Counted from the stretch's first letter, positions 59,072 through 62,474 are shown. The stretch is 64,000 nt of DNA from Gilvibacter sediminis (GCF_028561565.1 NZ_JAQQTE010000001.1:230005-294004); one strand, 5' to 3'. Numbers and translations are program-made. Notes: generated by a model not told the origin, from the sequence alone.

Positions 59072-59743
59072 TTACTTATTCCGACTGTAACGACACTTAG
59101 GATAACTATTACAACCATAGAATTCAGTTCCTGCTCTTGGTCCTGATTTAACTGTTCTGACAACTAACGCTGAGCCACATCGAGGACAAGTCTCTTTTGA
59201 TCTATGTCTCTGTCTTAGTGATCTTAAATGATCTCTCTTTTTAAGCGTTGATGTCTTCTGAAAGCTTTTGAGTTTGAAATAAAGCAATTGTAATTCTGCT
59301 TCATTGAATAATAACTTCTTATGAGATTTTATATATCTGCCTAAGGCATAATTTCGGACATTTGGTGGCATTTTAGTCCTGAAACTACAGTTTCCATTGA
59401 AGTAGATTATTGTCTTAATCCTCGAATCATCCACTCCTAAAAATTCTGCTAATACCTTTTTCTGACGGAAGGCTTGCCGCAGCGGATTCTGAAATTGATA
59501 TTTTCTTTTGTAAATGACTTGCGTCCATTTAGCTGAGTCCTCCGAACCAAAAATCCAACCCTTTTTGTTCTTAGTTTCTATGATGAATAACCCAAATGGC
59601 GAGATGACTAAATGGTCTATTTGAGCCGTGCCATTTGAAGACGGAATAATGAGGTTATGAAACCTTTTATAGGTTTTACTGTTGAGCGAAAACCAAAGGT
59701 CTATTGCAGCTCGCTTTTCTCCTATCCAGCCTTTGGAGAGCAT
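59072..59743 (-). CDS. NERD (nuclease-related domain) protein with C-terminal topoisomerase-type zinc ribbon
   Basis: NERD motif (IDHLVISPFGLFIIETKN), C-terminal CPRCGSALV...YGCNSYPKC. Confidence 0.75.
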   Translation of the reverse strand: MLSKGWIGEKRAAIDLWFSLNSKTYKRFHNLIIPSSNGTAQIDHLVISPFGLFIIETKNKKGWIFGSEDSAKWTQVIYKRKYQFQNPLRQAFRQKKVLAEFLGVDDSRIKTIIYFNGNCSFRTKMPPNVRNYALGRYIKSHKKLLFNEAELQLLYFKLKSFQKTSTLKKRDHLRSLRQRHRSKETCPRCGSALVVRTVKSGPRAGTEFYGCNSYPKCRYSRNK

Positions 59744-59776
59744 GGGTTAATTATTATTTGAATACCTCAATTGTAC

Positions 59777-60634
59777 TTACTTCAATATCGGATTCTTCAT
59801 CGAAGTTTTACCATTAGATGGCTCTCCTGTTTTGTGACAATACTTCTCTGGAAAATCTTCGTTCTTATATTCATTCCAAATTTTCCACGCTTCTCGACTC
59901 ATGGGCTGTTTTGGGTTGAACTTGATTTTCTTACCTGTACGAATACAAAAGCCAAACTCTTGTAATTCCGTTTCAGATCGATCAGGACGTTCTACTGGCG
60001 CATCGTCCAACTCCAACTCAACAGGAAAATCAGGCAATCTTTTCTTCTCGACAACTGATGATTTTGAATTTCCATAAAATCTCTCCGTGGAATCAACCAA
60101 AACCTCTGACTTGACATATTTTTTACCAAGATTAATTATCATTTTGGATTTTTCGTACACGGGTCTTTTAATGAAAACCACTTCATTCTCATCCGCAATG
60201 TCTAGACAGGTATTCCAGGCATCATTGTCCGCCGATTGTTTAATCTTATTCATTAAACTTTGCTGAGAATAAACACCAAATTCAATATTGTTTTTGAATG
60301 AATAATCGTAAAGATTTATGGAGCTGATAACACCTTTTATCTCGTTGCCATAATACTTGGCATGTAAATTCGACACATAGATTATTGACACATTTGGAAA
60401 TTTCTTGAAGTAATCAAAGTCAGCCTTGCTCATGCTCTTTTTAACCTCCTTTTCATTTTTACCAAACACAAGTAATAAGTGAACTTTTGGATTGTTTTCG
60501 TGCCTATCAAAAAGCTTCTTGAAATAGTCGTCAAGTTTTATAAAGGGAGATACTATTAGTAGTTTTTCCTCTGCTTCCCATATAATGTCGTATATGGCAT
60601 CTTCTAGTTCCTTACCTGTCAGGAATTTGCTCAT
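59777..60634 (-). CDS. PLD-family (single HKD) nuclease-like protein
   Basis: HxK(x)4E(x)5GxxSxN: NLHAKYYGNEIKGVISSINL; N-terminal LLIVSPFI typical of PLDc_2. Confidence 0.6.
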   Translation of the reverse strand: MSKFLTGKELEDAIYDIIWEAEEKLLIVSPFIKLDDYFKKLFDRHENNPKVHLLLVFGKNEKEVKKSMSKADFDYFKKFPNVSIIYVSNLHAKYYGNEIKGVISSINLYDYSFKNNIEFGVYSQQSLMNKIKQSADNDAWNTCLDIADENEVVFIKRPVYEKSKMIINLGKKYVKSEVLVDSTERFYGNSKSSVVEKKRLPDFPVELELDDAPVERPDRSETELQEFGFCIRTGKKIKFNPKQPMSREAWKIWNEYKNEDFPEKYCHKTGEPSNGKTSMKNPILK

Positions 60635-60730
60635 AGGTTAAATTATAATTAATTCAGGAATTTATGTTACGATCATGCTTTATTTGGGTGAGAACAAGTA
60701 ATTACTTAAAGCCATTGTTGGACTTAGCTT

Positions 60731-61744
60731 TTATTCACCTTTAGTTGTTGCACTTTTTATTATTTCAATAATCTTGCTATTTGAATCTGAATCTCCATCA
60801 TTTTTCAAATATCCAGTTTGTTGGTTTGAAAATATGGAATGAGTAGTTTCAATTAAGACTGCATTTTTAGTTTGGTCATCAGCACTTGCAGCACTTGAAA
60901 AAGTCTCAAATGTACTTAATGCATTCTGTCGATGTTTATTCATAATTGCATTGTGTTTATGTGCTTTATAATTTCTATTAGTAATTGATAAGGCATAAAA
61001 TAAGGCCGTAAGTACAACAACCTTGGTAATTGTAAATTGTACTATTTCAGCGTTATCTTTAAATAACATTCCAAGAAATGCTAGTCCGATTGCAGAAACC
61101 ACTATTCCAATTAAAATCCACGTTGTATATACTAACCATATTTCCGATTTAGTTTCGTGAAATTCTGACTCTGCTTGAAATACTTTAGAGTGTTTTGAAA
61201 CTCCAACTTGTGTTGCAGCACTTTTTGCACTTTCGAGGATATCATTTAGTTCTTTAAGTTTTGCTTCGCTTACTAATTCTGTTTCTTTTTGTTGCTTTTC
61301 CAATTCCGTTATTAGTTGGTTCATTTTTGCACGTTCAACGGATAGGTCATTACTATTTAAAAGTCCAATTGATAGAATCGGAACAGAATGAGTATAGTAA
61401 TTATCGTATGTATTTTGAATGTTATTTATTAATCTTGTTCTCGCATTTGCAGCGTTATTAACTGTTGGATCAAAAGTTTTTACTTGGTCAAAATAAGTTA
61501 TTGCTTGATTTATTTGTGCGTTTACAGAGTTTAATAGACTGTATGGAACTTCTTGTAAGTTTACTTCCTTAACTCGCTTAAACAAGTCAATTATTTTAAT
61601 AAAATCTTCTTCAATTTCTTTAAAACTGAATTGAGTTCCGAGTTCTTCCTCACGAGTCAGTTCTTCAATTGAATAAGACACCATTTTTTCAAGTCTTTCA
61701 TTTACTTGCTTGAATACAGTGTCAAATTGTTCTTTTGTTGCCAT
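60731..61744 (-). CDS. Coiled-coil protein with central 2-TM hairpin (SLATT-like?), hypothetical
   Basis: About 190-aa helical/coiled-coil N-terminus, two adjacent TM helices (IWLVYTTWILIGIVVSAIGLAFLGML / VVVLTALFYALSI), hydrophilic tail. Confidence 0.5.
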   Translation of the reverse strand: MATKEQFDTVFKQVNERLEKMVSYSIEELTREEELGTQFSFKEIEEDFIKIIDLFKRVKEVNLQEVPYSLLNSVNAQINQAITYFDQVKTFDPTVNNAANARTRLINNIQNTYDNYYTHSVPILSIGLLNSNDLSVERAKMNQLITELEKQQKETELVSEAKLKELNDILESAKSAATQVGVSKHSKVFQAESEFHETKSEIWLVYTTWILIGIVVSAIGLAFLGMLFKDNAEIVQFTITKVVVLTALFYALSITNRNYKAHKHNAIMNKHRQNALSTFETFSSAASADDQTKNAVLIETTHSIFSNQQTGYLKNDGDSDSNSKIIEIIKSATTKGE

Positions 61745-62474
61745 TAGTACTTTTATTTATTATTTCTTTCAATTCAGAAACAGTGTAAGCAGGCTTTTTT
61801 TTGTGAAGCATAGCGTGACAATTCGGACAAACAGGAATTAAATCCGCTTTTGGATCAACCGAATATTCCTTGCCGATGGTTGAAATATCAATTATGTGAT
61901 GAACGTGAATAAAATTCTGTCCAAGTTCACCAAACTTTTCTTGAAAATTAAAATCACAAACTTGACAATTCAGTCCAAAATGTTCAATACACTCTTGCCT
62001 TGCAATTTGATTTCTCTCGTAACTATTTACTTTTACCACTCTTGTTTTTCCTTCCGAATATTGTTTGTGAGATTCAACTTCGTCTGGAAATACCGTATCC
62101 GCAAAAGTATCTTTTACCAGTTCATAGTATTTGTCATAAATTTTTCTGCCTTTTCTTACGGAAGCTCCTGAAGTCTCTTCGTAATATTCAATGTGTTGAT
62201 ATAATGCAAGAAGAGCTGTTTTCAGTGCGGTTATTCCGTTTTCGTTATGGATTCGGTCAAGATAGTAGTCAGTTGCGTAAGCGTTGATCGTTCTTGTATA
62301 TAGTTTTCCTTGAAGGAGTTTGGAGTAAGCATAAATATAATCAAATGCGGAACTCTTTTTAAGTCCAACGTCCGCCAAAATATTTGCTCCGTCAGAAACT
62401 GAAATTTCATTCAAATAGACTTTATTCGCAATTTCGTATGCCCTGTGGATTTGTTCATTCGTGTTTTTCGTCAT
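61722..62474 (-). CDS. HNH endonuclease with N-terminal helical domain
   Basis: C-terminal HNH: CQVCDF...HVHHII...CPNCHAMLH; 23-nt overlap with the downstream 2-TM gene. Confidence 0.8.
   Translation of the reverse strand: MTKNTNEQIHRAYEIANKVYLNEISVSDGANILADVGLKKSSAFDYIYAYSKLLQGKLYTRTINAYATDYYLDRIHNENGITALKTALLALYQHIEYYEETSGASVRKGRKIYDKYYELVKDTFADTVFPDEVESHKQYSEGKTRVVKVNSYERNQIARQECIEHFGLNCQVCDFNFQEKFGELGQNFIHVHHIIDISTIGKEYSVDPKADLIPVCPNCHAMLHKKKPAYTVSELKEIINKSTNGNKRTI

What the first reader, a model, noticed from the sequence alone, without database searches (positions are those of the whole stretch)
59072..62474. AT-rich island with an HNH nuclease / coiled-coil 2-TM protein / PLD-family nuclease cluster plus a NERD protein: candidate uncharacterised anti-phage defence module
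Four minus-strand genes sit in a segment clearly lower in GC than the surrounding chromosome. An HNH endonuclease overlaps by 23 nt, suggesting translational coupling, a protein built as a long coiled coil followed by a 2-TM hairpin. A 96-nt gap follows, then a single-HKD PLD-like nuclease. A NERD/zinc-ribbon protein lies immediately downstream. Nuclease plus membrane-effector pairings are the hallmark of abortive-infection systems. I cannot match the trio to a named system (not Septu, Zorya, Kiwa or Shango). The N-terminal ~150 aa of the HNH protein and the 2-TM protein have no motif I recognise, so this may be an undescribed defence architecture.
Basis: partly seen in the sequence, partly recalled or inferred. 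Interest (0 to 1): 0.78.

Follow-up and report, generated by a model that had tools for sequence, protein, structure and literature searches.

The report
Decayed integron cassette array, not an operon
The four genes are real, but they are separate mobile gene cassettes of the integron type whose recombination sites have decayed. They are not one co-evolved anti-phage system, although one of them belongs to a large uncharacterised membrane-protein family that is a good single-gene defence candidate.

Summary
Four minus-strand ORFs lie at the stated coordinates: NERD+Zn-ribbon, PLD-like, a 337-aa 2-TM protein and an HNH protein. The 23-nt overlap and 96-nt gap are as described, and GC is 0.32-0.37 against about 0.44 elsewhere.

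The interpretation as one module fails. The 2-TM family has no conserved neighbour in 80 species genomes (HNH 0, NERD 0, PLD 1). None of 80 metagenomic HNH-family loci carries a 2-TM gene. DNA homology to the closest relatives begins and ends within about one base of the 2-TM ORF limits.

In relatives, the HNH and 2-TM genes are integron gene cassettes. Each is followed by an attC-type site with covariation support, the sites form same-strand arrays, and some lie beside integron integrases. A PLD homolog has such a site just upstream of it. A NERD homolog has an attC-like hairpin upstream of it.

The window has no intact attC, only relics at the gene junctions. The HNH/2-TM overlap is the first box of the HNH cassette's attC joined to the 2-TM start codon.

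The best reading is a fossil cassette array of independent genes with defence-like domains. The 2-TM family has 4157 cluster representatives and also sits in prophage lysogeny modules beside Abi genes. It is the most interesting component.

The parts
59072..59743 (-). Cassette-derived gene encoding a NERD domain plus a C-terminal topoisomerase-type C4 zinc ribbon (223 aa). It is the last gene of the array. Its stop codon lies 1 nt from the stop of the convergent reductase gene.
   Evidence: Pfam NERD scores 1.5e-29 and Zn_ribbon_Top1 2.4e-11. phrog_21557 matches the full length at 7.5e-32. The only homolog seen in fetched loci (L159, 38% identity) is preceded by a 71-nt attC-like hairpin, TTATAAC...GTTAAGT.
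59777..60634 (-). Cassette-derived gene encoding a single-HKD PLD-like protein (285 aa) with an uncharacterised C-terminal half.
   Evidence: PLDc_2 scores 2.3e-4, below the cut-off. phrog_9329 scores 5.6e-22 and DrmC-type models score 3e-7. The family has 1650 full-length hits of 284-286 aa. In L096 an attC (97.6 bits) ends 22 nt before the homolog's ATG. Homolog loci have different neighbours.
60664..60723 (-). Relic of the 2-TM cassette's attC. The 5' half GTCCAACAATGGCTTTAAGTAATTACTTGTTCTCACC (60723-60687; R'' box 60723-60717) and a 3' remnant CATGATCGTAACAT (60677-60664) remain. The middle and the L' arm are deleted.
   Evidence: The relic aligns with the intact attC sites that follow 2-TM homologs in L011 and L003 and precede PLD in L096. 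The best hit of model R1 in the region starts here, 8 nt after the stop as in L011 and L003, but scores only 11 bits with E 0.42.
60731..61744 (-). Cassette-derived gene encoding a 337-aa protein. It has an N-terminal helical domain of about 190 aa, a 2-TM hairpin and a nearly invariant basic C-terminal motif (NRNYKAHKHN..NKHRQNAL.TFETF..QTKNAVL..T..IF..Q.TGY).
   Evidence: The word-indexed search gave 297 hits. The exhaustive search gave 4157 cluster representatives, nearly all 325-345 aa. The alignments show the conserved motif. The AlphaFold model has pLDDT 80 and is all helical, with no PDB match. A weak DUF6161 match occurs in some members only.
61737..61754 (-). Junction motif AAAAGTACTAATGGCAAC. 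This is the conserved start of the HNH cassette's attC (R'' box TGGCAAC, 61743-61737), and here it also supplies the 2-TM start codon (ATG at 61744-61742).
   Evidence: The same motif follows the HNH stop codon in many homolog loci, where it opens a 130-nt attC. 2-TM homologs begin ATGGCAAC after their own GTTGGGC core and leader.
61722..62474 (-). Cassette-derived gene encoding a 250-aa protein with a conserved helical N-domain and a C-terminal HNH nuclease with an intact CxxC...HH...CxxCH motif.
62498..62518 (-). Relic of the 3' end (L' arm and R' core GTTGCTA) of the preceding cassette's attC. It is followed by the conserved 5' leader of the HNH cassette.
   Evidence: The relic aligns with ...CATATACAACACGTTGCCATTAATAC...ACTGAATG upstream of HNH homologs in L081, L100 and L099.
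62542..63472 (-). Two further small same-strand ORFs in the AT-rich stretch (179 aa and 126 aa). Both have signal-peptide-like starts and are probably further cassettes.
   Evidence: The ORFs are listed. They match nothing in Pfam, PADLOC, NCBIfam or PHROGs. GC here is 0.34-0.37.
57663..58012 (+). Copy A of a direct repeat of about 350 nt. Copy B lies at 63636-64000 and is cut by the window end. Together they bracket the reductase gene and the island.
   Evidence: The copies are 89-98% identical and are the only long direct repeat in the window. The repeat has no Rfam match.

Best explanation
The AT-rich stretch 59.07-63.5 kb is the remnant of an integron-type gene-cassette array. Each ORF (NERD/Zn-ribbon, PLD-like, 2-TM, HNH, and probably the two small secreted proteins) arrived as its own promoter-poor cassette with its own attC recombination site. 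All were inserted in the same orientation.

The attC sites have since been truncated or deleted, so the genes now abut. The HNH cassette's attC was lost up to its first box (TGGCAAC). That box shares 9 nt (AATGGCAAC) with the start of the 2-TM ORF, and this produces the 23-nt overlap. This deletion route is inferred.

The genes are probably co-transcribed here simply because nothing separates them, but they did not evolve together. Each is most plausibly a stand-alone accessory or defence-type gene (inferred):
- The HNH protein is probably a sensor-plus-nuclease enzyme like a type IV restriction enzyme.
- The PLD-like and NERD proteins are probably stand-alone nucleases.
- The 2-TM protein is probably a cytoplasm-facing sensor domain tethered to a membrane hairpin that oligomerises and damages the membrane on infection (abortive infection or exclusion).
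For: Independence of the genes:
- No neighbour family recurs in more than 5 of 80 2-TM loci.
- HNH and NERD occur next to 2-TM homologs in 0 of 80 loci, and PLD in 1 of 80.
- 2-TM occurs in 0 of 80 HNH loci, 38 of which have at least 1.1 kb downstream.
- blastn homology to L001 begins and ends within about one base of the 2-TM ORF limits. In L002, L003 and L004 it extends at most about 30 nt beyond one or both ends.

attC sites in relatives:
- Folds show an R''/R' stem, an unpaired spacer, an L stem with two bulged bases and a variable loop.
- On alignment A7, 88% of cells pair against 24-41% when the partner is slid. Thirteen of 21 pairs carry compensatory changes, and 0 of 500 shuffles reach the observed values.
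- Covariance model R1 finds same-strand arrays in Kordia (3 sites), Salegentibacter (4 sites, two of them flanking the HNH gene), Bacteroidota SSA2 (at least 9 sites), and in L107, L111, L158, L100 and L172.
- Structures in the attC position after 2-TM stop codons are enriched: 10 of 79 against 12 of 751 random positions at the strict threshold.

Integrases: the divergent neighbours of 2-TM homologs in L031, L053 and L026 pass the curated TIGR02249 cut-off (441, 375 and 382 bits against 265). L081 and L002 carry a XerA/IntI-like recombinase.

Relics in the window are documented.

Defence-type context for the 2-TM family: in prophage contigs it sits between the repressor and the integrase, next to Abi_2 genes. 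In L017 and L027 it follows hsdM directly. Published work shows that integron cassettes often encode anti-phage systems (bioRxiv 10.1101/2024.07.02.601686 and 10.1101/2024.07.02.601719). A DUF6161 family was flagged as a predicted defence protein but not tested (bioRxiv 10.1101/2025.01.08.631966).
Against: No intact attC and no integrase lie in the 64-kb window, so the cassette origin of this particular locus rests on relics and on what relatives show.

Model R1 was built from one attC type and could miss others.

For PLD only an upstream attC was seen, in one locus. For NERD only one homolog locus was seen.

Only about a quarter of the 80 2-TM genome loci show a recognisable attC, so the family also travels by other means.

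Immediate neighbours of 2-TM homologs are only modestly enriched in defence genes: about 5 of 150, plus 3 integrases.

No function was tested for any of the four proteins.
Confidence: 0.82

Rival explanations
1. HNH, the 2-TM protein and PLD, with or without NERD, form one undescribed abortive-infection system. The nucleases and the membrane effector would be translationally coupled and would work together.
For: The genes are on the same strand and tightly packed. There is a 23-nt overlap, and no terminator-like site lies between them. Pairings of a nuclease with a membrane protein do occur in known systems. No named system matches.
Against: The genes do not co-occur elsewhere. HNH and NERD are found in 0 of 80 2-TM loci, 2-TM in 0 of 80 HNH loci, and PLD in 1 of 80 loci at 2.7 kb distance. 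The closest HNH relative lacks the 2-TM gene. Each family is length-conserved and stands alone with variable neighbours. The overlap is explained by an attC relic.
Confidence: 0.06
2. The genes are independent cassettes, but they, and especially the 2-TM protein, are not defence genes. They could be selfish or housekeeping-like accessory functions, such as a homing-type HNH nuclease or a membrane stress or transport-related protein.
For: Most integron cassettes have unknown function. Immediate neighbours of 2-TM homologs are mostly ordinary genes, including ribonucleotide reductase in 4 loci and GST in 3. Neither PADLOC nor the PDB gives a match for the 2-TM protein.
Against: In prophages the 2-TM gene is placed between the repressor and the integrase, beside Abi_2 genes. 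It is embedded in type I R-M loci. The HNH family matches a type IV restriction model in PADLOC (1.1e-5) and McrA. Published screens found many defence cassettes in integrons.
Confidence: 0.25
3. The palindromic elements in relatives are not attC sites but another repeat class, such as REP- or MITE-like elements. On this view the island came from a different kind of mobile element.
For: The Bacteroidota recombinases next to the arrays (L081, L002) do not reach the integron-integrase cut-off of TIGR02249: 193 and 180 bits against 265. The R'' boxes (TGGCAAC, TGCCAAC, TGCTAAC) fit RYYYAAC only partly. A 350-nt direct repeat flanks the region.
Against: There is one element per gene, always on the gene strand. 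AAC...GTT ends are conserved. Each cassette's 5' core (GTTGCCA, GTTGGGC) is complementary to its own R'' box (TGGCAAC, GCCCAAC). The bulged L stem shows covariation. Proteobacterial homologs carry canonical AGTTAAC...GTTAGGC sites next to integrases that pass the curated cut-off.
Confidence: 0.08

Closest known systems
Sedentary chromosomal integron cassette arrays and CALIN elements (clusters of attC sites lacking an integrase)
   Same: The locus is a same-strand string of small, unrelated, AT-rich, promoter-poor ORFs. Homologs of each ORF are bounded by attC-type sites in other genomes, and cassette boundaries coincide with gene boundaries. The gene content is nucleases and small membrane or secreted proteins, as reported for integron cassettes that encode anti-phage functions (10.1101/2024.07.02.601686).
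   Different: The window has no intact attC and no integrase, only relics at three junctions. It therefore does not meet the operational CALIN definition of at least 2 attC sites (PMC9024848). The host is a flavobacterium, a group in which IntegronFinder surveys found integrons to be rare.
EcoKMcrA and other HNH type IV (modification-dependent) restriction enzymes
   Different: The N-terminal domain of about 135 aa is an unrelated helical domain. It shows no sequence or fold similarity to McrA's 5mC-binding domain. Specificity for modified DNA is untested.
Prophage- and integron-borne single-gene membrane Abi or exclusion proteins (for example the 2-TM effectors of CBASS and retrons, or Brigantia and Sucellos from the Vibrio cholerae integron)
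   Same: The 2-TM protein is a small stand-alone protein with a membrane hairpin. Its family is carried on integron cassettes and in prophage lysogeny modules beside Abi_2 genes.
   Different: There is no detectable sequence or fold relationship to any of them. The long N-terminal helical domain and the invariant basic C-terminal motif are particular to this family.
Pfam DUF6161 (PF19658)
   Same: Some family members (P0063, P0070, P0105) match over the coiled-coil, 2-TM and C-terminal region at about the gathering score (27-28.5 bits). A DUF6161 family in Pseudomonadota was predicted to be anti-phage by a language model.
   Different: The window protein itself gives no DUF6161 hit even at E up to 1. 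The relation is distant, and DUF6161 has no known function.
DISARM DrmC and the NERD domain of BREX PglW
   Same: The similarity is at domain level only. The PLD-like fold matches DrmC models (3e-7), and the NERD domain matches the N-terminus of PglW (1.6e-8).
   Different: No other DISARM or BREX component lies in the region. Scores are far below the family cut-offs (23.6 against 133, and 27.4 against 990).

Membership tests
Integron (complete) | An integron integrase (IntI) gene lies next to the array. | tested here: not met
   No tyrosine recombinase related to the L081 integrase occurs among window ORFs of at least 80 aa (phmmer, E below 1e-5). Sequence beyond 64000 could not be read.
Integron / CALIN | At least two attC sites (R''-L''-loop-L'-R' structure) lie between the genes. 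| tested here: not met
   Model R1 gave no hit at E up to 1 in the whole window. With filters off, the best hit scored 11 bits with E 0.42. Only truncated relics are present. R1 models one attC type, so other types could be missed.
Integron gene cassette (HNH family) | In other genomes the ORF is followed, and preceded, by an attC on the same strand. | tested here: met
   R1 hits flank the HNH homolog in L081 (5845-5975 and 6732-6861), L107, L111 and L100. Hits within about 40 nt after the stop codon occur in at least 13 loci. Folds are shown.
Integron gene cassette (2-TM family) | The ORF is followed by an attC, and in some genomes it is adjacent to IntI. | tested here: met
   attC sites follow the stop codon in L001, L003, L011, L016, L008, L018, L019, L039, L040, L045, L049, L057, L061 and others. 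The enrichment is 10 of 79 against 12 of 751 random positions. IntI passes the TIGR02249 cut-off in L031, L053 and L026.
Integron gene cassette (PLD and NERD families) | The ORF is bounded by attC sites in other genomes. | tested here: inconclusive
   For PLD, one locus (L096) has a strong attC 22 nt upstream and none downstream. L094 and L010 have none. For NERD, the single homolog locus L159 has a 71-nt attC-like hairpin upstream and a degenerate one downstream.
Co-evolved multi-gene defence system | The component genes are conserved together in order across unrelated genomes. | tested here: not met
   The trio is not seen anywhere else.
McrA-like type IV restriction enzyme | An HNH catalytic core is combined with an N-terminal modified-cytosine-binding domain homologous to McrA. 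| tested here: not met
   The HNH core is present and intact. The N-domain has no similarity to McrA by sequence or by fold.
DISARM (DrmC) | The PLD protein reaches the DrmC model cut-off and sits with DrmA, DrmB and a methylase. | tested here: not met
   The NCBIfam DrmC score is 23.6 bits against a cut-off of 133. No partner genes appear in the ORF list.
Pfam DUF6161 | The protein reaches the PF19658 gathering score. | tested here: inconclusive
   The window protein gives no hit at E up to 1. Three relatives score 26.9-28.5 bits against a gathering score of 27.
Any system in PADLOC-DB v2 | The proteins match the component models of a named or candidate system. | tested here: not met
   Only domain-level hits were found. 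The 2-TM protein has none.

The most novel reading that the evidence does not exclude
The 337-aa 2-TM protein represents a large, uncharacterised single-gene anti-phage (abortive infection or exclusion) family. The family has 4157 representatives at 50% identity and a fixed length, and it is never seen fused to another domain. It is spread across many bacterial phyla by integron cassettes and prophage lysogeny modules. A cytoplasmic helical sensor domain would control a membrane hairpin and an invariant basic C-terminal motif. A second, separate novelty is that marine Flavobacteriia and other Bacteroidota carry integron-like arrays with attC sites of about 130 nt. These arrays are served by a same-strand XerA/IntI-like recombinase that standard integron-integrase models do not recognise.
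Probability: 0.35. Interest if true: 0.65.

Novelty: new member of a known kind. Interest (0 to 1): 0.45.

Why it matters
The locus shows how a tidy-looking operon with overlapping genes can arise when neighbouring integron cassettes lose their recombination sites. This is a useful caution for guilt-by-association searches for defence systems.

It also identifies three full-length protein families as integron cargo in marine Bacteroidota: the HNH protein with its helical N-domain, the PLD-like protein, and above all the 2-TM protein. Each could be tested on its own for phage defence.

The relatives fetched here document arrays of attC-type sites in Flavobacteriia, a group in which surveys have reported integrons as rare.

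Tried and rejected
- RNAalifold on a mixed alignment of attC elements gave no structure, because two subtypes are out of register. This was solved by aligning one subtype and supplying the structure by hand.
- My own regex-plus-fold attC scanner was too permissive, with many hits everywhere, and I dropped it.
- MAFFT could not align the short proteobacterial attC sites with the long ones, so no second model was built.
- Foldseek against the PDB for the 2-TM model returned only long-helix noise. A profile search of PDB sequences returned nothing meaningful.
- tblastn of the 2-TM protein found no match in sequenced phages and one match in plasmids, a Vibrio megaplasmid.
- Looking up the 100% identical PLD protein (Gilvibacter sediminis) to read beyond the window end failed, because no gene record was available.
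- The idea that the 1100-1230-aa upstream neighbours of 2-TM homologs were HsdR was wrong. They are class II ribonucleotide reductases.
- The 336-aa protein near the HNH homolog in L082 and L083 is not a 2-TM relative.
- The sigma-70 promoter scan gave matches at chance level and does not suit Bacteroidota.
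Full report
**Observation.** The four ORFs exist exactly as described. All are on the minus strand: 59072-59743, 59777-60634, 60731-61744 and 61722-62474. The 23-nt overlap and the 96-nt gap are confirmed. In 1-kb windows, GC falls to 0.32-0.37 between 59 and 64 kb, against mostly 0.40-0.49 elsewhere.

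Pfam confirms NERD (1.5e-29) with a topoisomerase-type zinc ribbon (2.4e-11), and HNH (4.9e-8). The PLD call is weak in Pfam (2.3e-4, below the cut-off). It is backed by a PHROG family (5.6e-22) and by DrmC-type models. The 337-aa protein matches no curated family and has two hydrophobic segments. PADLOC names no system. Two more same-strand ORFs, 62542-63081 and 63092-63472, lie in the same AT-rich stretch.

**Is it a module?** I took each family in turn.

The 2-TM protein belongs to a large, length-conserved family. The indexed search gave 297 hits, and the exhaustive search gave 4157 cluster representatives, nearly all 325-345 aa. The region after the second TM helix is almost invariant.

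I fetched 80 loci from species genomes across Bacteroidota, Proteobacteria, Acidobacteria, Planctomycetota and other phyla. In these:
- No neighbour family recurs in more than 5 loci.
- HNH and NERD homologs are absent from all 80 loci, and a PLD homolog occurs once, 2.7 kb away.
- Nucleotide similarity to L001 begins and ends within about one base of the ORF limits. In L002, L003 and L004 it extends at most about 30 nt beyond one or both ends.

The HNH protein is a member of a family of at least 1719 full-length relatives of 240-250 aa. In 80 metagenomic loci of this family, none carries a 2-TM gene. The closest relative (93% identity) is followed by unrelated sequence. The PLD family has 1650 hits of 284-286 aa and also has variable neighbours. 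The trio is therefore not a conserved unit.

**What the flanks show.** Directly after the stop codon of many HNH homologs lies a conserved motif, AAAAGTACTAATGGCAAC. It opens an element of about 130 nt that ends in ...ACGTTGNNN.

These elements fold into the anatomy of integron attC sites:
- a 6-7 bp outer stem (R''/R') with AAC and GTT;
- an unpaired spacer;
- an inner stem with two single-base bulges;
- a variable loop.

The same kind of element follows 2-TM homologs. In Bacteroidota it is the 130-nt type. In Proteobacteria it is the canonical short type, AGTTAAC...GTTAGGC, overlapping the stop codon.

On an alignment of ten elements, with a structure I supplied, 88% of cells pair. Only 24-41% pair when the partner is slid by 1-3 columns. 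Thirteen of 21 pairs show compensatory changes, and none of 500 shuffles reaches the observed values.

A covariance model built from this alignment finds arrays of such sites, always on the gene strand:
- three in Kordia algicida;
- four in Salegentibacter agarivorans, two of which flank the HNH gene;
- at least nine in Bacteroidota SSA2;
- one ending 22 nt before a PLD homolog in Flagellimonas;
- two to four per contig in several marine metagenome contigs.

Structures in the attC position after 2-TM stop codons are about eight-fold enriched over random positions at the strict threshold: 10 of 79 against 12 of 751.

Three proteobacterial or desulfobacterial 2-TM loci have a divergent neighbour that passes NCBI's curated integron-integrase cut-off. 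Two Bacteroidota loci have a same-strand XerA/IntI-like recombinase. The one NERD homolog seen (L159) sits after a 71-nt attC-like hairpin, in a contig that also holds an HNH-family gene followed by a sequence ending in the canonical GTTAGGT core.

**The window itself.** The model finds no intact attC anywhere in the 64 kb. With filters off, the best match in 55-64 kb scores only 11 bits. It nevertheless starts 8 nt after the 2-TM stop, as the intact sites do in L011 and L003.

Alignments show relics at three junctions:
- The first 37 nt after the 2-TM gene (GTCCAACAATGGCTTTAAGTAATTACTTGTTCTCACC) match the 5' half of the L011-type attC. The rest is gone.
- The 67-nt spacer before the HNH gene keeps the L'-R' end (CTCATATATAACCTGTTGCTA) and the conserved cassette leader seen upstream of HNH homologs.
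- The HNH/2-TM junction keeps the opening motif of the HNH attC.

The R'' box of that motif, TGGCAAC, overlaps the 2-TM start (ATGGCAAC...). In relatives the 2-TM ORF begins with the same ATGGCAAC, after its own GTTGGGC core and a leader of about 20 nt. A deletion between these two 9-nt identical stretches would give exactly the observed 23-nt overlap. This step is inferred.

No recombinase gene related to the L081 integrase lies in the window. The window ends at 64000, so what lies beyond is unknown.

**What the genes probably do.** This section is inference.

In the HNH protein only the catalytic domain resembles EcoKMcrA and CBASS Cap5. Its conserved helical N-domain has no recognisable relative. 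The simplest reading is a sensor-plus-nuclease enzyme of the type IV restriction kind.

The AlphaFold model of the 2-TM protein (pLDDT 80) is all helical and has no PDB counterpart. The positively charged conserved motif after TM2 argues that both ends face the cytoplasm.

The family's contexts are those of accessory defence genes:
- integron cassettes;
- prophage lysogeny modules between the repressor and the integrase, next to Abi_2 genes;
- positions right after hsdM in two loci.

Immediate neighbours overall are only mildly defence-enriched. Some members touch Pfam DUF6161 at the gathering score. A DUF6161 family was flagged, without testing, by a defence-predicting language model. Published work shows that integron cassettes are rich in compact anti-phage systems. 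I could not test whether any of those is this family.

**Comparison and novelty.** The locus works like, and derives from, an integron cassette array. It does not meet the definition of an integron or a CALIN, because intact attC sites and an integrase are missing here. Integrons are known from Bacteroidota but were reported as rare in genome surveys. The arrays seen in relatives, with 130-nt sites and a recombinase that fails the standard integron-integrase model, deserve a proper survey. As a defence architecture the finding is not real. As a set of independent candidate genes it is moderately interesting, chiefly for the 2-TM family.

**Verdict.** My confidence that these are independent, cassette-derived genes rather than a co-evolved system is about 0.8. 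My confidence that the 2-TM protein is a defence gene is about 0.35-0.45.

Noticed in passing
window 57663-58012 and 63636-64000: A direct repeat of about 350 nt (89-98% identical) is the only long direct repeat in the window. Its second copy is cut by the window end. The two copies bracket the reductase gene and the AT-rich island. Each copy contains a GC-rich imperfect hairpin of about 104 nt with GAAAAAC...GTTTTTC ends. The repeat has no Rfam match and no match in any fetched locus. It could be a recombination scar, a REP-like element or a small RNA gene.
   Followed up: partly
window 63468-63523 (read on the minus strand): A hairpin (AACTCCCCA...TGGGGAGTT) followed by a T-run looks like an intrinsic terminator. 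It lies just upstream of the first small ORF of the island (63092-63472). If it functions, transcription from further upstream probably does not enter the island.
   Followed up: no
L081 3346-4506; L002 2081-3175: In Bacteroidota the attC-type arrays sit beside a tyrosine recombinase on the same strand as the cassettes. The L081 copy passes the XerA/integron-integrase model NF040815 (228 bits against 220); the L002 copy does not (183 against 220). Neither passes the integron-integrase model TIGR02249 (193 and 180 bits against 265). In L002 a GTTGGGC core lies between this recombinase and the first cassette, which is a 2-TM homolog.
   Followed up: partly
L084 7242-7910; L087, L088 and L089 7304-7939: In prophage contigs a 211-222-aa protein with an N-terminal zinc ribbon lies 42-43 nt upstream of the 2-TM homolog. 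It may be a partner within that subclade.
   Followed up: no
L017 8355-11023; L027 855-3371: 2-TM homologs sit 9-11 nt after a type I restriction methylase gene (hsdM). They are embedded in restriction-modification loci.
   Followed up: partly
L159 6001-6717 and 11535-12194: One metagenomic contig carries both a distant HNH-family gene and a NERD/Zn-ribbon homolog about 4.8 kb apart. The sequence after the HNH gene ends in a canonical GTTAGGT core, and an attC-like hairpin precedes the NERD gene. This appears to be the same cassette pool in a different array.
   Followed up: partly
window 59777-60634: The PLD-like protein is 100% identical to a protein named 'phospholipase D family protein [Gilvibacter sediminis]' (P0241). 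The window therefore very probably comes from that flavobacterium.
   Followed up: partly
window 60642-60670 (minus strand): A sigma-70-like promoter match (GTAACA-17-TATAAT) lies inside the attC relic just upstream of the PLD gene. Such matches are at chance level in this region, and this consensus is not the Bacteroidota one.
   Followed up: no
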